Below the pieces are notes generated by a model, which did no database searches, was not told the origin of the DNA, and saw only the letters and a list, made by a program, of their open reading frames with translations. A program made the translations under genes and the position numbers. This document shows, piece by piece, positions 1 to 8,062 of a DNA stretch of 19,760 nucleotides. Positions within the stretch are counted from its first letter, which is position 1; each line of letters starts with the position of its first letter. The stretch lies in the IMG/VR virus record IMGVR_UViG_2740892274_000002. One strand, given 5' to 3'. This DNA comes from a virus. Lineage: Duplodnaviria > Heunggongvirae > Uroviricota > Caudoviricetes.

Positions 1-3000
1 ATACGCTATACCGTTAAAAATAATGGGCGGAATAATAATCTGGCGGTCAAAGTTATGATCATCGCTTATGGTGACTGTAACCGTCCCGTTTGGTGTTTCC
101 GTGTTACCCCACGTACCAGCCTGTTTCGGAAATGATTTGGATACAGCTTTAACGAAGTCACCTCTGACCTGAGTCGCCTCCAGCATGCCCTTAATCGTAC
201 AGTTTTCATTTACCGTGACATTGTTGAGCGTCCCGGCGTTCGCATTCACACTGCCACTGATATCCGCATTTTTAGCGGTCAGCTTTCCGTCCGGAGTCAG
301 GGAAAATGCCGATGGATTTCCACCGCTGGTAATGGTGGGGGCCGTCAGGCGTTTCAGGAACACGTCGTTCATGAATATCTGATCGCCCTGACCAACAAAC
401 ATCGGTTTTGTGTTGCCATTCGCAGGATTAACCATCGCAATCCTGTCCGCCGCCAGCAGCACCTGACTCTGCATGCCGTCAGGGGTGTTCTCAATACCGG
501 CACCAATACCCGCGATATAAAGGCGTCCGTCCTGCATCTGCTGCAGCTTCACAGCCCACATGCTGTTCAGGTTATTATTTGTATCAACCTGAACCTTCTG
601 TATCTGCTGAATTGCCGCACTCTGGTCTTCCAGTTTCTTATTGACGGTCTGCGTGATTTCATTGCTGACATCCGTAATGGACGTCCTGATTTCAGCCAGG
701 TCAGGCGCAAGCTGACCGTTATCAATCTGCGTCCACAGCTCCTGAGCCAGATGGGTTTTCCCTATCTCGCCTTTGAAAAAATCCAGATAACCGGATGCAT
801 CATCACTCGGCTGACCAACAGCCTCCACGAATGCCGATTTGCCAACGGTGTTCACACTGCGGATATAAAAGTAATAATCATGGCCCGGTTTGATATTGAT
901 ACTGGCGGCTATCCAGTACAGCGCCGTGCCAAGATAGCGTGCTGTGGTTTCAACCTGCCTGATATCCGCAATCCGCTTTTCCGAGAACCAGAACTCAAAC
1001 TGTACCGTCGGATCATAAACCGCAAGATGCGGCGTGGCGGTTATCTGAAAATAGCCCGGCGTCAGCTCAATCCGCGACAGCGCTGCCGGTGCGGCAATCC
1101 GGAACGATACCGACGCCGGATCGCCCTGCTGCCCCCACGCATTTACTGCCCGGACTGTCAGCCTGTAGTTCCCCAGCGCCAGTTGTGTGAAGCGGTAAGT
1201 GGTTTCCGTCGTCCGGGCCGTGCTGACCNNNNNNNNNNNNNNNNNNNNNNNNNNNNNNNNNNNNNNNNNNNNNNNNNNNNNNNNNNNNNNNNNNNNNNNN
1301 NNNNNNNNNNNNNNNNNNNNNNNNNNNNNNNNNNNNNNNNNNNNNNNNNNNNNNNNNNNNNNNNNNNNNNNNNNNNNNNNNNNNNNNNNNNNNNNNNNNN
1401 NNNNNNNNNNNNNNNNNNNNNNNNNNNNNNNNNNNNNNNNNNNNNNNNNNNNNNNNNNNNNNNNNNNNNNNNNNNNNNNNNNNNNNNNNNNACCGTCAGG
1501 AACACGGCTCACTTTTACCTTCACGCCGTCGGTGACGGACTGGACCTCCACGCTGACCGGATTCCCCTGCCCGTCAACCAGGCTTATCAGCGTGGTGCCG
1601 GAGGATGGCAGCGTGATTTCACGGTCGAGCGTCAGCGTCCGGGTCTGGCTGTTCACCGCCAGCACGCGCCCGCCGGTGCGGATACCGGCATAGTCATCAT
1701 CGCAGATTTCAATGACATCGCCCGGTACATGACGAAGCCCTTCAGCACCCACGCTGAAATCCACGGTCTGCGTCTCCAGCAGTTCCGTTTTAATCAGCCA
1801 CAGCCCGGCGCGGTGTGCCTGCCCCCGGCTGGTACAGCCAAAGGCATCCATCTTCGTGACGTTACGACCGTAACGGACAATGGCCTGCGTATCCTCCACA
1901 AGCTCTGTCGCCGTCTCCCAGCCGTTATCCGGGTCAATCCAGTTCACCTCAACGGCATTATGGCGGTCTTTCAGGGCGCTGAAACTGTAGCGGAACGGCG
2001 CGCCATCATCCGGCATCACCACATTACTGCGGTTATAGGCCCACACCTTATCCGACTGTCGGTCCTGCACGAACGTCAGCGTCTGCCCGTTCCATACCGG
2101 CATACAGCGCATCGCCGAGCAGAAATCACTGAGCACATCCCACGCCTTGCGCTGTGTGGTCAGCCAGGCATTACAGGTGATGCGCGGCTCCGTGCTGCCA
2201 AAGCCGTCCGGCACCGACTGGTCACAGTACTGGCCGATGACATACAGCGCCCATTTATCCACATCTGCCGCACCAAGACGTTTCCCCATGCCATAGCGCG
2301 GATGGGTCAGCATATCCCACAGACACCAGGCCATGTTGTTGCTGTATGCCGGTTTTAACGTTCCGTCCCAGATACCGCTGTATTGCCGCGTCTGCGGATT
2401 ATAGTTCGACGGCACCTGCAGAATGCGCCCGCGAAGATGATAATTACGGCTCACCTGCTGGCTGCCGAACTGCTCCGAATCCACCTGTACGCCGACCAGT
2501 GCCGTGTTCGGGTAGCACTGTTTCACATCGATGATTTCGGTGTATGACGACCAGAGCGTTTTGTTCTGCAGCTGGTCTGTGGTGCTGTCCGGCGTCATTC
2601 NNNNNNNNNNNNNNNNNNNNNNNNNNNNNNNNNNNNNNNNNNNNNNNNNNNNNNNNNNNNNNNNNNNNNNNNNNNNNNNNNNNNNNNNNNNNNNNNNNNN
2701 NNNNNNNNNNNNNNNNNNNNNNNNNNNNNNNNNNNNNNNNNNNNNNNNNNNNNNNNNNNNNNNNNNNNNNNNNNNNNNNNNNNNNNNNNNNNNNNNNNNN
2801 NNNNNNNNNNNNNTTTCACTTCCGTACCCAGCACCGTCTCGGAGCCGGAGGATTCAAATCCCTCCGGCGGTGACTGCTCCTGCTCACCTGCCCGGAACAC
2901 CACCGTGACGCCGGAGATGTTGGTATTCCCCTCACTGTCCAGCACCGGCGTACTGTTCAGCAGCACGCTTTTTAATCCATCCACCGGACCTTCAACCGGC

Positions 3001-3158: not shown

Positions 3159-3830
3159 TCAGCGACCAATCACCACAACCTGACCACCGTCCCCTTCGTC
3201 TGCCGTGCTGATCTCCTGAGATACCACACGTGACCCCACGCGCATTTCACCATACAGAACAGGCATAACATTGCCCTGGGCAACCATGTTATCCAGTGAG
3301 GAGAAATAGGTGTTCTGCTTACCGTTATCCGTTGTCTGTGTGCGGGGAGTTCTGGCTTTCGGTGCCAGCATCTGAGCCACACCGCCGAGCACCATACTGG
3401 CACCGAGAGAAAACAGAATGCCGGTCATACCACCGGCACCAATGGCAGCCCCCCATGCTGCAAGGGTGGCTCCGGCGGTAAAGAATGATCCGGCAATGGC
3501 GGCTGCTCCCAGGACAATCTGGAATACACCACCTGACTTGGCCCCGGCGACTCTGGGAACAATATGAATCACAGCGCCGTCAGGCAGAGCCTCATGTAAC
3601 TGTGCCGTTAATCCGGACGTGCTAACATCCTGCCCGGCAATACGCACCTGATACCAGCCGTCGCTCAGCTTCTGACGAAACGCAGGGAGCTGTGTGGCCA
3701 TCGCCCGGATGGCTTCGGCACCCGTTTTCACACGAAGGTCGATGCGGCGGCCAAATCGTTGCAAATCCCCGTAAAGGCAGATGCGTGCCATGCCCGGTGA
3801 CGCCAGAGGGAGTGTGTGCGTCGCTGCCAT
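3159..3830 (-). CDS. I: Tail tip assembly protein I
   Basis: 223-aa ORF MAATHTLPLASPGMARICLYGDLQRFGRRIDLRVKTG matches lambda gpI from memory. C-terminal Gly/Ala-rich hydrophobic segment. Overlaps the 3' end of K by 103 nt. Confidence 0.93.
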   Translation of the reverse strand: MAATHTLPLASPGMARICLYGDLQRFGRRIDLRVKTGAEAIRAMATQLPAFRQKLSDGWYQVRIAGQDVSTSGLTAQLHEALPDGAVIHIVPRVAGAKSGGVFQIVLGAAAIAGSFFTAGATLAAWGAAIGAGGMTGILFSLGASMVLGGVAQMLAPKARTPRTQTTDNGKQNTYFSSLDNMVAQGNVMPVLYGEMRVGSRVVSQEISTADEGDGGQVVVIGR

Positions 3831-4471
3831 TTGTCGGTGTACCTCTCTCGTTTACTCAGTTGTTCAGGAATATGGTGCAGCAGCTCGCCGTCACCACAGT
3901 AAATGGCGGCATGATTCGGCACCGATGAACCAAAACAGCACAGCAGCACATCGCCCGGCTGCGCCGCTGACAACGGCACCTGATACAGCCCTGTGGCCTC
4001 CAGATTATCCAGATAGAGATTCTGACCGTGACGCCACCAGTCATCCTCACGATGAAAATCCGGCATCTCAATCCCCGCCAGATGGTAAGCATCCCGGAAC
4101 AGCGTGTAACAGTCCGTCACCCCGTGCTCAAAGCGCCGCCCGGTAAGATGTGGCACACAGCGGAACTTGTGAATCGCCCCCCGGCAGACCAGCCACCACG
4201 GCAAATCACTCTGCACCTGCAGCCGCCGGTCGGCCTCACTCAGCCAGGGCAGACCACCGGGGTGGCTGTGGACCAGTGCCACAATCTCACCCTGCATCTC
4301 TGCCTGCAGCCAGTCTTCCGGCGACATACGGAAATACGCCTCCGGCTCACCGGAGATATTCACGCAGGGGAAATATCTTTCCCCCTCCGGCGTTCTTACC
4401 ACGAAGCCGCACGACTCCGCTGGAGCACATCGCCGGGCGTGCGCCAGAATCGCTGATTCTGTCTCTGTCAT
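3728..4471 (-). CDS. K: Tail tip assembly protein K (MPN/JAMM-like plus NlpC/P60-like domains); long form from the first ATG
   Basis: 247-aa ORF MTETESAILAHARRC starting 5 nt after the L stop. Contains HSHPGGLPWLSEAD (HxHx7Sx2D JAMM signature) with a candidate upstream Glu at residue 20 (spacing 48), and a C-terminal Cys/His-containing NlpC/P60-like region. An internal ATG at 4325-4327 with an upstream GGAGG corresponds to the start of the 199-aa form I recall for lambda. Confidence 0.85.
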   Translation of the reverse strand: MTETESAILAHARRCAPAESCGFVVRTPEGERYFPCVNISGEPEAYFRMSPEDWLQAEMQGEIVALVHSHPGGLPWLSEADRRLQVQSDLPWWLVCRGAIHKFRCVPHLTGRRFEHGVTDCYTLFRDAYHLAGIEMPDFHREDDWWRHGQNLYLDNLEATGLYQVPLSAAQPGDVLLCCFGSSVPNHAAIYCGDGELLHHIPEQLSKRERYTDKWQRRTHSLWRHRAWHASAFTGICNDLAAASTFV

Positions 4472-4476
4472 GGGAT

Positions 4477-5175
4477 TTACTGCGAAAGTTTGTTAATGGA
4501 AAGGAAGCCGCCAAAGTTGCCGACGTTATTGCGAAACTTACAGCCACTCAGGCATTTGCTGCATTTATCCTTCGTGATGTCGGACGTTGGCTGGTCATAT
4601 TCATCCGCGACCGCCGGACCGTGATAACCGCACTCATCGCCGCGATAGGTCCAGGTGCAGGTGTTGGCCAGCATGATACGTCCCGGAAAAACAGCGCCAT
4701 CTGTTTCCGTCGGCGTGGACAGTACAAAAGAGGCACTCACCGCGCTCAGTTCGCTGCACTGCTCAATGCGCCAGCGGCTGATCACCTCCTGCTCCGGATC
4801 GGCGTCACTGTTTCCGTTGACGAAGTTCACCGCATCCAGAAAACGGGCGTAAACCTTACGCCGGACCACCGTTCCGCCGACCAGACTCTGTAGATCTTCC
4901 GCCATCCCGGTGACCATACCGTACAGGTTAGAAACCATCAGCGTGGGGCGCGTACTGGTGCCTTTGCCATTCAGTTCAAAACCACTCCCCTGAATGGGAT
5001 ACGGCTGATACTGTCGCCCCTGCCAGGTGACCGGCTCACCTTTTTCGTTCTGCTCATTACAGAAAAAATAACGTTCTCCACCGACCTCTGTCAGATCGAT
5101 TTCCCAGAGCACCACGCTGGCCGACTGCTCCGCACGGGTGCATTCATTCAGTGTTTCCTGCCGGATATCCTGCAT
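4477..5175 (-). CDS. L: Tail tip protein L
   Basis: 232-aa ORF MQDIRQETLNECTRAEQSASVVLWEIDLTEVGGERYFFCNEQNEKGEPVTWQGRQY matches lambda gpL. Start overlaps the M stop (ATGA). Confidence 0.95.
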   Translation of the reverse strand: MQDIRQETLNECTRAEQSASVVLWEIDLTEVGGERYFFCNEQNEKGEPVTWQGRQYQPYPIQGSGFELNGKGTSTRPTLMVSNLYGMVTGMAEDLQSLVGGTVVRRKVYARFLDAVNFVNGNSDADPEQEVISRWRIEQCSELSAVSASFVLSTPTETDGAVFPGRIMLANTCTWTYRGDECGYHGPAVADEYDQPTSDITKDKCSKCLSGCKFRNNVGNFGGFLSINKLSQ

Positions 5176-5504
5176 CAGTTCACCACCTGTTCAAACTCTG
5201 CGCTGAACTCAACACGCAGCATACTGACCCGCGACGACCATTTTGCGCAGGTCACCTTTATCTGCCGCCACTCATAAGGCGGCGTCCACAGAAAGGCTTT
5301 CCAGCCCCCGTGCTCTTCCAGAAACGACTCCAGTACCATGGCCTCCTCACGGGGGACAGAAAGCGTCACGCTGTACGTTTTCAGGTTGGCATTCAGCCCG
5401 GCAGGCGCTCGCTGGGAATAGCCATCACCAAAGCGCACCTTTCTTACAGAAGGGGCCGAAGCCACATCCATACCGGGTTTCACTTTCCAGCGGAAGGTTT
5501 TCAT
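5175..5504 (-). CDS. M: Tail tip protein M
   Basis: 109-aa ORF MKTFRWKVKPGMDVASAPSVRKVRFGDGYSQRAPAGLN matches lambda gpM. Start overlaps the H stop. Confidence 0.95.
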   Translation of the reverse strand: MKTFRWKVKPGMDVASAPSVRKVRFGDGYSQRAPAGLNANLKTYSVTLSVPREEAMVLESFLEEHGGWKAFLWTPPYEWRQIKVTCAKWSSRVSMLRVEFSAEFEQVVN

Positions 5505-8062
5505 CGTCCACCTCCGGAGAACAGGCCACCATCACGCATCTGTGTCTGAATTTCATCACGGGCACCCTTGCGGGCCATGTCATACACGGCCTTCATCATC
5601 TGTGGACCTGGCAGACCATTCGTACCGTCGTTCTGAATCACCACGTGATTGTTCTGATTAAAATTAATGCCTTCAGCCCGCCGCATCTGCGCCGGACTTC
5701 CGGCACCGCCCACATAACCACCTTCCGCATAGCCGCGCATCAGCCGGTAGAGATTCCCCACGCCAATCCGGCTGGTTGCCTCCTTCGTGAAGACAAATTC
5801 ACCACGGTGAACAATCCCCGCTGGCTCATATTTGCCGCCGGTTCCCGTAAATCCCCCGGTTGCAAAATGGAATTTCACCGCAGCGGCCTGAATGGCTGTA
5901 CCACCTGACGCGGATGCGCCGCCACCAACAGCCCCGCCAATGGCGCTGCCGATACTCCCGACAATCCCCACCATTGCCTGCTTAAGCAGAATTTCTGTCA
6001 TCATGGACAGCACGGAGCGGGTGAAGCTGCGCCAGTTCTGTTCACTGCCGGTCAGCATCGCCGCCATATTCTGTGCAATACCATCAAAGGTCTGCGTGGC
6101 TGCACTTTTAACCTGTGACATACTGTCCGTGGCGCTCTCTTCCCACTCACTCCAGCCGGACTTCAGGCCTGCCATCCAGCTCCCGCGAAGCTGGTCTTCA
6201 GCCGCCCAGGTCTTTTTCTGCTCTGACATGACGTTATTCAGCGCCAGAGGATTATCGCCATACTGTTCCTTCAGGCGCTGTTCCGTGGCTTCCCGCGCTG
6301 CCTGCCGGTCAGTCAGCCCCCGGTTTTTCGCATCAATGGCTGCCCGTTTTGCCCGTTGCTGCTGTGCGAATTTATCCGCCTGCTGCGCCAGCGCATTCAG
6401 GTGCTCCTGATACGTAACCTTGTCACCAAGTGCAGCCAGCTGGCGTTTGTACTCCAGCGTCTCGTCTTTATGCGCCAGCAGGGATTTCTCCTGTGCGGAC
6501 AGCTGGCGACGTTGTGCCGCCTCCTCCAGTACCGCGAACTGACTTTCTGCCTTCCACAAATCCCGGCGCTGCTGGCTGATTTTCTCATTCGCTCCGGCAT
6601 GCTTCTCCAGCGTCCGGAGTTCTGCCTGAAGCGTCAGCAGGGCCGCATGAGCACTGTCTTCCTGACGATCGCCCGCATACACCTTCACGCCGGACTGTTT
6701 CGGCTTTTTCAGCGTCGCTTCATAATCCTTTTTCGCCGCCGCCATCAGCGTGTTGTAATCTGCCTGCAGGATTTTTCCGTCTTTCAGTGCCTTGTTCAGT
6801 TCTTCCTGACGGGCGGTATATTTCTCCAGCGGCGTCTGCAGCCGTTCGTAAGCCTTCTGCGCCTCTTCGGTATATTTCAGCCGTGACGCTTCGGTATCGC
6901 TCTGCTGCTGCGCATTTTTGTCCTGTTGACGCTGTTGATCTACCCTCTTTTGGGCTGCATCCCGCTCCAGGCGTTTTTTTTCACGATCATCCCAGTAACG
7001 CGCCCGTGCTTCATCGTTAACGAAATAATCATCCTTGCGCAGATTCCAGATGTCGTCTGCTTTCTTAAACGCAGCCTCTGCCTTAATCAGCATCTCCTGC
7101 GCGGTATCAGGACGACCAATATCCAGCACCGCATCCCACATGGATTTGAATGCACGTGCAGTCCTGTCTGCCCAGGTCTCCAGCGTGCCCATGTTCTCTT
7201 TCAGGCGGCGGGTCTGGTCATCAAACCCTTTCGTTGCGGCCTCGTTCGCCGCCTGCAATGCCCCGGCTTCATCGCCGGAACGCTGCAACTGAGCAACATA
7301 CGCAATCTGCTCCGCCGTCACGTTATGGAACTGGCGTGCCATCGCCGTCAGCCCCGACGTCGGGTCTGTGGTCAGCTTCCCGAAGGCTTCAGCGACCTTG
7401 TCCACCTCCACGCCGGATGCATAGGAGAAACGCGCCACACTCTGGCTGATGGACGCAATCTGAGCCTCACCGCTTACCCCCGCCTTAACCAGTGCGCTGA
7501 GTGACTCGCTGGTCTGGTTAAACGTCAGCCCTGCCGCCTGCCCGGCTCTGGACAGGACCAGCATACGATCTGCCGTCAGTCCCGCCTGATTACCGGAAAG
7601 GACCAGCGTTTTGTTGAAATCGGACAGGGTTGAGTTGCCCTGATACCAGGCATACGCCAGCGCACCGGTCGCCACCGCCAGCGAGGTGGCCCCCACCATC
7701 GGCAGGGTGATCGCGCCGGCAAGCCCCCTGAACATGGGGATCATCCCGCCGAAGGAGTCCTTAACCTGACCACCCTGTTGCAGCAGGATCAGCCAGGGAT
7801 TCTGCCCCCCTGCAAGCTGCGTGGCCACGTCGGTGAACTGTGCAGGCAGCATACGCATGGCGGCTTTATACTGCCCGACGGAAATCCCCGCTTTCTGTGC
7901 AGCCAGCGCCTGTCGGCTCAGCGACTGTTCAACGACTGCCGCTGTTTTTTTCGCATCACTTTCCGTACCGGAAAAATGACGCCTGACTCTGGCCATCTGC
8001 TCGTCAAATCTGGCCGCATCCAGACTCAAATCAACGACCAGATCGCCTACCGGTTCAGCCAT
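5501..8062 (-). CDS. H: Tail tape measure protein H
   Basis: 853-aa ORF MAEPVGDLVVDLSLDAARFDEQMARVRRHF, Ala/Gln/Lys/Glu-rich coiled-coil composition, same length as lambda gpH; sits between T and M. Confidence 0.95.
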   Translation of the reverse strand: MAEPVGDLVVDLSLDAARFDEQMARVRRHFSGTESDAKKTAAVVEQSLSRQALAAQKAGISVGQYKAAMRMLPAQFTDVATQLAGGQNPWLILLQQGGQVKDSFGGMIPMFRGLAGAITLPMVGATSLAVATGALAYAWYQGNSTLSDFNKTLVLSGNQAGLTADRMLVLSRAGQAAGLTFNQTSESLSALVKAGVSGEAQIASISQSVARFSYASGVEVDKVAEAFGKLTTDPTSGLTAMARQFHNVTAEQIAYVAQLQRSGDEAGALQAANEAATKGFDDQTRRLKENMGTLETWADRTARAFKSMWDAVLDIGRPDTAQEMLIKAEAAFKKADDIWNLRKDDYFVNDEARARYWDDREKKRLERDAAQKRVDQQRQQDKNAQQQSDTEASRLKYTEEAQKAYERLQTPLEKYTARQEELNKALKDGKILQADYNTLMAAAKKDYEATLKKPKQSGVKVYAGDRQEDSAHAALLTLQAELRTLEKHAGANEKISQQRRDLWKAESQFAVLEEAAQRRQLSAQEKSLLAHKDETLEYKRQLAALGDKVTYQEHLNALAQQADKFAQQQRAKRAAIDAKNRGLTDRQAAREATEQRLKEQYGDNPLALNNVMSEQKKTWAAEDQLRGSWMAGLKSGWSEWEESATDSMSQVKSAATQTFDGIAQNMAAMLTGSEQNWRSFTRSVLSMMTEILLKQAMVGIVGSIGSAIGGAVGGGASASGGTAIQAAAVKFHFATGGFTGTGGKYEPAGIVHRGEFVFTKEATSRIGVGNLYRLMRGYAEGGYVGGAGSPAQMRRAEGINFNQNNHVVIQNDGTNGLPGPQMMKAVYDMARKGARDEIQTQMRDGGLFSGGGR

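What the first reader, a model, noticed from the sequence alone, without database searches (positions are those of the whole stretch)
3728..4471. K encodes a 247-aa protein with a complete JAMM/MPN signature, 48 codons longer than the lambda K form I recall
The K ORF opens 5 nt after the L stop with MTETESAIL. It contains HSHPGGLPWLSEAD, a full HxHx7Sx2D JAMM metal-binding motif, and a candidate catalytic Glu in PAESCGF at residue 20, about 48 residues upstream. The 199-aa form I recall for lambda would start at the internal Met (FRMSPEDW, ATG 4325-4327) and lose that Glu. The apparent 1-nt offset between this window and my recollection of lambda coordinates for K, I and J hints that the lambda reference may differ by an indel upstream of the short start. 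K (JAMM plus NlpC/P60-like) with the partly overlapping I gene is a peptidase-like pair; I also recall I as ubiquitin-like, which I have not checked in the sequence.
Basis: partly seen in the sequence, partly recalled or inferred. Interest (0 to 1): 0.4.

Follow-up and report, generated by a model that had tools for sequence, protein, structure and literature searches.

The report
Full-length lambda-type tail protein K
The window carries the normal, full-length (247-residue) two-protease tail-assembly gene K of a lambda-like prophage; the 199-residue lambda K of the reference record is an artefact of one missing base in that 1982 sequence, and the gene's make-up has been known since 2003-2006.

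Summary
Window 3728-4471, on the minus strand, is a 247-aa ORF that starts 5 nt after the L stop codon. It has a complete JAMM motif (E19, not residue 20; H68-S-H70-x7-S78-x2-D81) followed by an NlpC/P60 domain (C121/H187/H199). Pfam, a PDB profile search and an AlphaFold model all support an MPN fold starting at about residue 3.

J02459/NC_001416 lacks a G after nt 14266, 10 nt upstream of the annotated K start. The G is present in nearly every other lambda-derived record examined and in lambda contaminant contigs in unrelated genome assemblies. The G-less sequence has no hits in complete E. coli genomes or in three large contig collections. The first 48 codons are under the same purifying selection as the rest of the gene. 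Met49 is not conserved.

None of this is new. The exact protein is already a RefSeq "C40 family peptidase". The JAB+NlpC/P60 architecture and the K/I (ubiquitin-like) pairing were published in 2003 and 2006, and the +G appears in a published variant table. What K cleaves is still untested; gpI after Gly100/101 is the leading candidate. Low interest, but a useful curation note.

The parts
3728..4471 (-). Gene K, full-length CDS (247 aa, 28.2 kDa calculated)
   Evidence: ORF list. 97-99% identical to K of lambda, 434 and mEp460. PGAP annotates the same 744-nt CDS in E. coli genomes. The exact protein is on >=1000 contigs in the protein collection.
4178..4462 (-). JAMM/MPN+ (Prok-JAB) metalloprotease domain, residues 4-98
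   Evidence: Pfam PF14464, 52.6 bits. PDB profile hits 2KCQ, 2KKS and PfJAMM1 5LDA. In the AF2 model, helix 3-15 and strands 19-27 and 30-35 lie in 10-residue blocks whose mean pLDDT is 85-95. Foldseek hits to PfJAMM1, Rpn11, AMSH and CSN5.
4415..4417 (-). Codon of E19, the JAMM general-base Glu in P-x-E-x-C-G; lies in the 48 codons missing from the lambda reference annotation
   Evidence: Invariant in 11 diverse and 26 closer homologues. Aligned to the yPeEscG motif of solved MPN proteins.
4229..4270 (-). H68-S-H70-x7-S78-x2-D81 zinc-binding motif
   Evidence: Sequence. H68, S69, H70 and D81 invariant, S78 nearly so.
3800..4141 (-). NlpC/P60 (C40) cysteine-peptidase domain, residues 111-224, with C121 (4109-4111), H187 (3911-3913) and H199 (3875-3877)
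   Evidence: Pfam PF00877, 49.2 bits. Triad residues invariant. Foldseek hits to Acd33800, MepS and LytE.
4325..4327 (-). Internal ATG (Met49), the start of the 199-aa lambda reference form
   Evidence: Not conserved: Ile in Stx2_95 and PPompW; Leu, Ile or Pro in distant homologues.
4337..4337 (-). The G that is absent from J02459/NC_001416 after nt 14266; it keeps codons 1-48 in frame with the rest of K
   Evidence: Alignment A1; published variant 14266 C>CG.
4339..4343 (-). GGAGG inside the K coding sequence, 11 nt upstream of Met49; it looks like a Shine-Dalgarno site and draws gene callers to the short start
   Evidence: A Logan contig has the 199-aa call although the long ORF is open. 199-aa clusters with thousands of members.
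4469..4479 (-). L stop (4477-4479), 5-nt spacer, K ATG (4469-4471): tight junction with no Shine-Dalgarno site, implying translational coupling
   Evidence: In distant phages the K start lies within 1-3 nt of the L stop or overlaps it.
4477..5175 (-). Gene L (232 aa), upstream partner
   Evidence: Pfam Phage_tail_L, E=1e-100.
3159..3830 (-). Gene I (223 aa): N-terminal ubiquitin-like domain, Gly-rich hydrophobic linker, C-terminal plug domain; overlaps K by 103 nt (3728-3830) in the -1 frame
   Evidence: Pfam Lambda_tail_I, residues 14-97. Ub-like fold per Iyer 2006. Alignment A3.
3528..3545 (-). gpI residues 96-101, G-A-K-S-G-G: conserved end of the ubiquitin-like domain and candidate cleavage site
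   Evidence: P92, K98 and G101 invariant in 9 homologues. gpI is resolved only from residue 101 or 134/135 in cryo-EM structures.

Best explanation
Window 3728-4471 (minus strand) is the intact gene K of a lambda-like E. coli prophage. It encodes a 247-aa, 28-kDa, non-virion tail-tip assembly protein made of two peptidase domains. The N-terminal domain is a JAMM/MPN+ zinc metalloprotease (E19; H68, H70 and D81 as zinc ligands; S78). The C-terminal domain is an NlpC/P60 papain-like cysteine peptidase (C121/H187/H199). Translation most likely starts at the ATG 5 nt after the L stop, by coupling to L (inferred). The 199-aa K of the lambda reference is an annotation artefact. J02459/NC_001416 lacks a G after nt 14266, which breaks the frame, so the annotators took the next ATG (Met49), which sits behind a GGAGG. 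Real lambda DNA has the G and encodes the same 247-aa protein. Mechanism (inferred, as proposed by Iyer et al. 2006): K acts on the product of the overlapping downstream gene I. The JAMM domain binds gpI's N-terminal ubiquitin-like beta-grasp domain and cuts after its conserved C-terminal Gly-Gly (G100/G101), as archaeal and bacterial JAMM enzymes cut linear Ubl fusions. This would free the hydrophobic linker plus plug domain, the only part of gpI seen in the mature tail tip. The role of the NlpC/P60 domain is open; it could be a second cut in gpI, or the gpH to gpH* cleavage.
For: ORF and motifs. Domains: Pfam Prok-JAB 52.6 bits and NLPC_P60 49.2 bits. Sub-threshold match to the desampylase model over residues 3-114. 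PDB profile hits to MPN proteins and PfJAMM1 starting at residues 3-19. AF2 model with mean pLDDT 81.7, where the blocks covering residues 1-40 average 85-95. Foldseek hits divided between JAMM deubiquitinases and NlpC/P60 hydrolases. Long form is the norm: 1722 of 1760 phage records align over >=80% of the 247 aa, and the listed alignments start at residues 3-10. Catalytic residues are invariant. pN/pS of codons 1-48 is 0.07-0.22, against 0.14-0.19 for the rest. Met49 is not conserved. K starts abut the L stop in distant phages. PGAP nt. Reference error: alignment. Only 4 of 122 matching phage records are G-less, two of them being the reference itself. No G-less place among 7375 places in 3941 complete E. 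coli genomes. The G-less 31-mer has 0 hits in IMG/VR, the metagenome contig collection and GTDB genomes, against >=120, >=120 and 24 hits for the G-containing 32-mer. Seventeen lambda contaminant contigs in unrelated bacterial assemblies match J02459 at >99.5%; twelve of them differ from it only by the +G (one also has an N), over up to 8 kb. The lambda-gt10 transgene shows 14266 C>CG (PMC6760142). Mechanism context: gpK is absent from virions. gpI is resolved only from residue 101 or ~135. The gpI G-x-K-x-G-G motif is conserved. Iyer 2006 proposed the cleavage.
Against: No direct evidence here for the start codon used in vivo. There is no Shine-Dalgarno site before the upstream ATG, while GGAGG precedes Met49, so an additional short isoform cannot be excluded. 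Two later GenBank records are G-less: OR974322 and the unverified OR474059. OR974322 has reference-identical coordinates and only 6 differences from J02459, which suggests reference-guided assembly but does not prove it. No experiment shows that K cleaves gpI. An unresolved N-terminus in cryo-EM maps can equally mean disorder, and virion mass spectrometry detected gpI without stating which part.
Confidence: 0.85

Rival explanations
1. The short 199-aa protein starting at Met49 is the real product, or a physiologically important second product. The upstream 48 codons would then be untranslated or make only a minor read-through form.
For: GGAGG lies 11 nt upstream of Met49, and no Shine-Dalgarno site precedes the upstream ATG. 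Gene callers often choose the short start, giving 199-aa clusters with thousands of members. The short form keeps a complete NlpC/P60 domain.
Against: Met49 is Ile in close relatives at about 87% identity, and Leu, Ile or Pro in distant ones. Codons 1-48 show the same purifying selection as the rest and hold invariant P17, E19, G22 and N38. The short form retains only half of the MPN fold and falls below the Pfam cut-off. Tight L-K junctions are conserved.
Confidence: 0.05
2. The missing G is a genuine mutation of the lambda cI857 S7 stock sequenced in 1982, not a sequencing error. That strain would make tails with a K lacking a working JAMM domain, so the JAMM activity would be dispensable.
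For: Two later records are G-less, and one of them (OR974322) carries the Sam7 change at 45352.
Against: OR974322 has the reference's coordinates and only 6 differences from it, and OR474059 is flagged UNVERIFIED. Twelve de novo assembled contaminant contigs in unrelated genomes differ from J02459 only by the +G. Two of them cover 17183 and 18835, where they agree with J02459 rather than with the divergent Lambda_AGU line. DE3, lambda-gt10, imm434, PV340536 and KT232076 all have the G. The G-less 31-mer has zero hits in three large collections and no G-less place occurs in complete E. coli genomes.
Confidence: 0.04
3. K's peptidase domains act mainly on a substrate other than gpI. Candidates are the tape-measure protein gpH (the gpH to gpH* cut, whose protease is unknown) or peptidoglycan, as for typical NlpC/P60 enzymes.
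For: How gpH is cleaved is stated to be unknown. The closest structural neighbours of the C-terminal domain are cell-wall hydrolases. TIGR02219 'putative phage cell wall peptidase' gives a sub-threshold match.
Against: gpK is not found in virions, so it cannot digest the wall during entry. The conserved K-I gene pairing, and natural K-I and JAB-I fusions, point to gpI as the partner. A JAMM domain next to a Ubl ending in Gly-Gly is the classic enzyme-substrate arrangement.
Confidence: 0.2
4. K is a non-catalytic chaperone or scaffold. Its two peptidase folds would serve only as binding modules for gpI and gpJ during tip assembly.
For: No enzymatic activity has ever been shown. MPN- scaffolds such as Rpn8 and Csn6 exist (established knowledge).
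Against: Every catalytic residue of both domains is invariant down to 29% identity, which is not expected for a pure scaffold.
Confidence: 0.07

Closest known systems
Bacteriophage lambda gpK (tail tip assembly protein K; UniProt TIPK_LAMBD, GenBank AAA96551, RefSeq NP_040598)
   Same: Same gene in the same H-M-L-K-I-J order. 97% identical over all 247 residues to the K encoded by resequenced lambda DNA.
   Different: The reference entries are 199 aa because of the missing G. They lack residues 1-48, including the catalytic Glu. The window comes from a lambdoid prophage about 96-97% identical to lambda, not from lambda itself.
TAPK/TAPI pair of Iyer, Burroughs and Aravind 2006 (PMC1779556); lambda K listed as a JAMM protein in Ambroggio et al. 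2003 (PMC300881)
   Same: Exactly the described architecture: JAB plus NlpC/P60 next to a ThiS/MoaD-like Ubl protein with a C-terminal Gly, a Gly-rich linker and a C-terminal domain.
   Different: Nothing architectural. Those papers did not discuss the truncated lambda start, and Ambroggio et al. cited the 199-aa AAA96551.
Archaeal and bacterial JAMM Ubl-proteases: Pyrococcus furiosus JAMM1 (5LD9/5LDA), Haloferax HvJAMM1 desampylase, Deinococcus DRJAMM
   Same: Same minimal MPN+ fold and motif. Best solved JAMM match: TM 0.59 normalised to the target, rmsd 3.4 A over 112 columns. Profile hit E=3.7e-5. The desampylase model matches residues 3-114. DRJAMM is reported to cleave a linear MoaD-MoaE fusion (abstract of PMC8832034); that HvJAMM1 also cuts linear SAMP1-MoaE is from my own knowledge. 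This is the reaction proposed for gpI.
   Different: K scores far below the desampylase equivalog cut-off (29 bits against 130). It is fused to an NlpC/P60 domain, is phage-encoded, and no E1-like activating enzyme was seen in the tail-gene stretches examined.
NlpC/P60 cell-wall endopeptidases (MepS/Spr, LytE, C. difficile Acd33800)
   Same: Same papain-like fold and Cys-His-His triad.
   Different: K has no signal peptide annotation or cell-wall-binding domain in these hits. It is cytoplasmic at the time of tail assembly and absent from virions, so peptidoglycan is an unlikely substrate.

Membership tests
JAMM/MPN+ metalloproteases (Pfam Prok-JAB PF14464) | Profile HMM match above the curated cut-off that covers the whole domain | tested here: met
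   52.6 bits against a cut-off of 25; residues 4-98 match profile positions 4-103 of 114. The 199-aa form fails, at 22.9 bits.
JAMM/MPN+ metalloproteases (Pfam Prok-JAB PF14464) | Complete E-x(n)-H-x-H-x7-S-x2-D motif, conserved in homologues | tested here: met
   E19, H68, H70, S78 and D81 are present. E19, H68, H70 and D81 are invariant and S78 is >=90% conserved in 11 homologues at 29-97% identity.
JAMM/MPN+ metalloproteases (Pfam Prok-JAB PF14464) | MPN fold | tested here: met
   AF2 model with mean pLDDT 81.7. Foldseek probability 1.00 to PfJAMM1, Rpn11, AMSH and CSN5. Profile hits to 2KCQ, 2KKS and 5LDA.
JAMM/MPN+ metalloproteases (Pfam Prok-JAB PF14464) | Zinc binding and (iso)peptidase activity | not testable with these tools
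   Needs purified 247-aa protein, metal analysis and a cleavage assay.
NlpC/P60 (MEROPS C40) peptidases | Profile HMM match above the cut-off | tested here: met
   PF00877, 49.2 bits against a cut-off of 23; residues 111-224 match profile positions 1-105 of 105.
NlpC/P60 (MEROPS C40) peptidases | Catalytic Cys-His-(His/polar) triad | tested here: met
   C121, H187 and H199 are invariant.
NlpC/P60 (MEROPS C40) peptidases | Peptidase or amidase activity | not testable with these tools
Lambda-type tail tip assembly protein K | Position between L and I/J in a siphovirus tail module, with close sequence identity to lambda K | tested here: met
   Gene order H-M-L-K-I-J. 97% identity to lambda K. phrog_30 and phrog_2635 tail families.
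Lambda-type tail tip assembly protein K | Required for tail assembly, absent from the virion | not testable with these tools
   Known for lambda from the literature; not testable for this prophage.
Ubiquitin-like TAPI (Pfam Lambda_tail_I) as K's partner | Lambda_tail_I domain, a conserved Gly at its C-terminus, and adjacency to K | tested here: met
   PF06805, 95.1 bits, residues 14-97. K98 and G101 invariant. 103-nt overlap with K.
Ubiquitin-like TAPI (Pfam Lambda_tail_I) as K's partner | Beta-grasp fold of the gpI N-terminal domain | not tested
   Taken from Iyer 2006. No model of gpI was built here.

The most novel reading that the evidence does not exclude
K and I may form a working phage-encoded JAMM/ubiquitin-like processing pair. 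The JAMM domain, which needs the 48 residues missing from the reference annotation, would cut gpI after Gly100/101 as an obligatory step of tail-tip maturation. One of K's two peptidase domains might also be the long-sought protease that converts gpH to gpH*. That would give the best-studied phage an experimentally tractable Ubl-protease step that has been overlooked, partly because the reference protein is truncated.
Probability: 0.35. Interest if true: 0.6.

Novelty: already known. Interest (0 to 1): 0.22.

Why it matters
Biologically this is an ordinary lambdoid tail gene. Its practical value is as a curation warning. The canonical lambda entries (J02459/NC_001416, NP_040598, UniProt TIPK_LAMBD) still give a K protein that lacks its first 48 residues and its catalytic glutamate. 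Some newer lambda records copy that annotation even though their DNA has the G. Anyone who clones, models or mutates gpK from the reference start would be working with half an MPN domain. The function of gpK, the fate of gpI's ubiquitin-like domain and the protease for gpH are still described as unknown in 2023-2025 structural papers. The correct 247-aa protein is therefore the necessary starting point for those experiments.

Tried and rejected
1. Programmed -1 frameshift fusing K to I. I lies in the -1 frame across a 103-nt overlap, and PHROG and protein-collection entries show K-I fusions. However, there is no X XXY YYZ slippery heptamer in or near the overlap. The fusions are more likely indels or assembly errors, or the rare natural fusions noted by Iyer 2006.

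2. Using Lambda_AGU (LC730321) to decide between sequencing error and strain mutation. It proved to be a different lambda line, with 15 differences from J02459 including the stf +C at 20833, so it was not decisive alone. The contaminant contigs settled the question.

3. Checking whether the 199-aa protein clusters reflect G-less DNA. They do not. A Logan contig has the long ORF open. Of ten chromosomal places carrying the exact 199-aa lambda protein, the seven where the site could be read all show GGAGGCG. Some have other small indels upstream, and two have the 247-aa ORF open. The 188 blocks whose longest contig is 20-50 kb could not be reached with the tool.

4. Literature search for an explicit statement that lambda K is 247 aa. 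None was found. Casjens and Hendrix 2015, Liu et al. 2013 (ribosome profiling) and Meyer et al. 2012 are not held in the library. My recollection that breseq's lambda test data list '14,266 +G intergenic L/K' is from memory only.

5. A suspected truncation of J after the N-run. It is not real. Window 1-2600 matches gpJ throughout, and the N-runs merely break the frame.
Full report
**What is in the window.** The window holds the left arm of a lambda-like prophage on the minus strand. The gene order is H (5501-8062), M (5175-5504), L (4477-5175), K (3728-4471), I (3159-3830), then J, which runs to the left end of the window. The segment is 96-97% identical to lambda and phage 434, so it is a relative and not lambda itself. 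The module is very common: 4419 of 5426 complete E. coli genomes hold a match, with a median of two places per genome.

**Checking the observation.** The ORF at 3728-4471 (minus strand) is 247 aa. Its ATG (4469-4471) lies 5 nt after the L stop (4477-4479).
- The protein begins MTETESAIL and contains HSHPGGLPWLSEAD at residues 68-81.
- The internal Met of FRMSPEDW is residue 49, ATG at 4325-4327.

The coordinates and motifs are therefore right. Only the strand was unstated and one residue number was off by one.

**What the protein is.**
- Pfam gives Prok-JAB (PF14464) at 52.6 bits (cut-off 25) over residues 4-98, and NLPC_P60 (PF00877) at 49.2 bits over residues 111-224.
- A profile of 11 homologues hits solved MPN proteins (2KCQ, 2KKS) and the Pyrococcus SAMP-protease JAMM1 (5LDA). 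The first two alignments start at residues 3-4, the JAMM1 alignment starts at residue 19, and all include the P-x-E-x-C-G motif. The C-terminal half hits Spr/MepS and LytE.
- NCBIfam gives a sub-threshold match to the desampylase model over residues 3-114.
- An AlphaFold2 model built on 26 sequences has mean pLDDT 81.7 and pTM 0.72. Helix 3-15 and strands 19-27 and 30-35 fall in 10-residue blocks averaging pLDDT 85-95, so the first 48 residues are a well-predicted, integral part of the domain.
- Foldseek matches divide between JAMM deubiquitinases (PfJAMM1, Rpn11, AMSH, CSN5) and NlpC/P60 hydrolases.
- In 11 homologues at 29-97% identity from Mannheimia, Stenotrophomonas, Burkholderia, Pseudomonas, Rhizobium, Klebsiella and E. 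coli phages, these residues are invariant: P17, E19, G22, N38, H68, S69, H70, D81, C121, H187 and H199.

**Long form against short form.**
- The 199-aa form retains only profile positions 63-103 of Prok-JAB and scores 22.9 bits, below the cut-off.
- By tblastn, 1722 of 1760 phage records align over at least 80% of the 247 aa, and the listed alignments start at residues 3-10.
- In distant phages K is 243-260 aa and starts within 1-3 nt of the L stop, or overlaps it. This points to conserved translational coupling.
- Met49 is Leu, Ile or Pro in distant homologues, and Ile in E. coli relatives at about 87% identity (Stx2_95, PPompW). Those phages therefore have no internal ATG at all.
- Against those relatives, pN/pS is 0.07-0.22 in codons 1-48 and 0.14-0.19 in codons 49-213.
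- PGAP annotates the 744-nt CDS as 'C40 family peptidase'.
- The exact window protein and the exact 247-aa lambda protein are each on at least 1000 contigs in the protein collection. One source names such a protein 'Predicted metal-dependent protease of the PAD1/JAB1 superfamily'.
- The upstream ATG has no Shine-Dalgarno site, whereas GGAGG (4339-4343) lies 11 nt before Met49. That explains why gene callers often choose the short start even when the long ORF is open. It also leaves a minor internal-initiation isoform formally possible.

**The lambda reference.** Aligning the L-K junction shows that NC_001416 reads GGAGGC-TATTTCC where the window, phage 434 and lambda imm434 read GGAGGCGTATTTCC. 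From the upstream ATG the reference frame runs only 76 codons. In contrast, LC730321, KT232076, DE3 and lambda imm434 all give 247 aa, and PV340536 even annotates the 744-nt K.
- With a 90-nt reference query, only 4 of 122 matching phage records are G-less: J02459, NC_001416, the UNVERIFIED OR474059, and OR974322.
- OR974322 has reference-identical coordinates and six differences from J02459, including Sam7. It is most simply a reference-guided assembly of control DNA.
- None of 7375 places in 3941 complete E. coli genomes is G-less.
- The G-less 31-mer has no exact match in IMG/VR, the metagenome contig collection or GTDB genomes. The G-containing 32-mer has at least 120, at least 120, and 24 matches.
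- Most tellingly, 17 of the 24 GTDB matches are low-coverage lambda contaminant contigs in assemblies of unrelated bacteria such as Neobacillus, Shewanella, Pseudomonas, Chromatium, Bradyrhizobium and Kitasatospora. They match J02459 at more than 99.5%. Twelve of them differ from it only by the +G at 14266/7 (one also has an N), over up to 8 kb.
- Two of these contigs cover positions 17183 and 18835, where they agree with J02459 rather than with the divergent Lambda_AGU line.
- A published table for the lambda-gt10 transgene of MutaMouse lists the same change, '14266 C>CG', alongside '137 AG>A' (PMC6760142).

I conclude that the missing G is an error in the 1982 sequence, or at most private to that template, and that lambda K is really 247 aa. 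Several newer lambda records still copy the 199-aa annotation although their DNA has the G.

**How it probably works.**
- Shown by sequence: two intact peptidase active sites; tight L-K coupling; a 103-nt K/I overlap; and a gpI with a Lambda_tail_I domain (residues 14-97), a conserved G-x-K-x-G-G at residues 96-101 (P92, K98 and G101 invariant), a Gly-rich hydrophobic linker and a C-terminal domain.
- From the literature: gpK is required for tail assembly but is not detected in virions by mass spectrometry or cryo-EM.
- Also from the literature: gpI in the tail tip is resolved only from residue 101 or from residue 134/135, and its N-terminal domain is never seen.
- Also from the literature: the protease that converts gpH to gpH* is unknown.
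- Iyer et al. 2006 identified gpI's N-terminal domain as ThiS/MoaD-like ubiquitin fold. They proposed that the JAB domain of K releases it by cutting at the C-terminal-most Gly.
- Inference: K binds the Ubl domain of gpI and cleaves after G100/G101. This would leave a fragment of about 12.4 kDa that plugs the tip. Prokaryotic JAMM enzymes such as DRJAMM are reported to cut linear Ubl fusions in this way.

I rate this step at roughly 35-45%. It remains untested.

**Comparison and novelty.** Lambda K was listed as a JAMM protein in 2003, using the truncated AAA96551. The JAB+NlpC/P60 architecture and the K/I pairing were described in 2006. The 247-aa protein is standard in RefSeq, and the +G has been reported in a variant table. 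The finding is therefore already known. Its residual value is the explicit link between the reference indel and the truncated, Glu-less K in the canonical lambda entries.

**Verdict.** Novelty: already known. Interest is low, about 0.2.

Noticed in passing
window 3159-3830 (-); alternative starts at 3789-3791 (Met14) and 3729-3731 (GTG, Val34): Gene I has a start-site problem that mirrors K's. PGAP and some phage records call I as 573 nt (190 aa), starting at the GTG that overlaps K's stop codon. That start removes the conserved first strands of the ubiquitin-like domain (consensus KLYGxLxxRFGxxxxLxV). The N-termini of homologues align near lambda Met14, and Pfam Lambda_tail_I starts at residue 14. 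The longer form (223 aa, or 210 aa from Met14) is therefore the better call.
   Followed up: partly
window 3728-3800 (-), K residues about 225-247: Lambda-type K proteins, and the Mannheimia homologue, have a C-terminal extension of about 20 residues, predicted as helix 230-246. Most distant homologues lack it. The extension is what creates the unusually long 103-nt K/I overlap; elsewhere the overlap is 8-26 nt.
   Followed up: partly
PHROG hits of K and I; proteins P0015, P0024, P0032, P0086 and others: Some families and individual proteins join L-K (PF05100+PF14464+PF00877), K-I (PF14464+PF00877+PF06805; phrog_28576) or JAB-I (phrog_35166) in one polypeptide. Most are probably indels in prophages or assemblies, but Iyer 2006 reported natural fusions. 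No slippery site was found in the K/I overlap of this window.
   Followed up: partly
L018 (LC730321) position 138 against J02459; PMC6760142 Table 5: A second single-base discrepancy with the lambda reference recurs in independent sequences: loss of one G at about nt 138, upstream of nu1 (137 AG>A in lambda-gt10). It may be a second error in the 1982 sequence.
   Followed up: no
L275-L298 (GTDB genome contigs): Species-representative genome assemblies of unrelated bacteria contain low-coverage contigs of laboratory lambda DNA. Examples are Shewanella canadensis NZ_RXNU01000020.1 (48,542 bp), Pseudomonas sp. 30_B and NFX15, Neobacillus, Chromatium, Bradyrhizobium and Kitasatospora. This is contamination that could mislead prophage surveys.
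   Followed up: partly
L019 (OR974322.1, whole record): A record described as a lambda isolate from chicken cloacal swabs is J02459 with six differences, including the Sam7 amber change at 45352. It looks like laboratory control DNA, probably assembled against the reference.
   Followed up: partly
window 1229-1491 and 2601-2813: Two runs of N lie inside gene J (minus strand) and break its reading frame in the ORF list. The 535-aa plus-strand ORF at 751-2358 lies antisense to J and spans one of these N-runs; it is probably spurious.
   Followed up: yes
L028, L030, L032, L033, L034: Several chromosomal copies that carry the exact 199-aa lambda K protein have the G at 14266 but other 1-2 nt length differences upstream of the short start, which truncate the long ORF. 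They look like homopolymer errors of long-read assemblies, but the indels were not located or examined. They show that K's N-terminal region is prone to false truncation.
   Followed up: no
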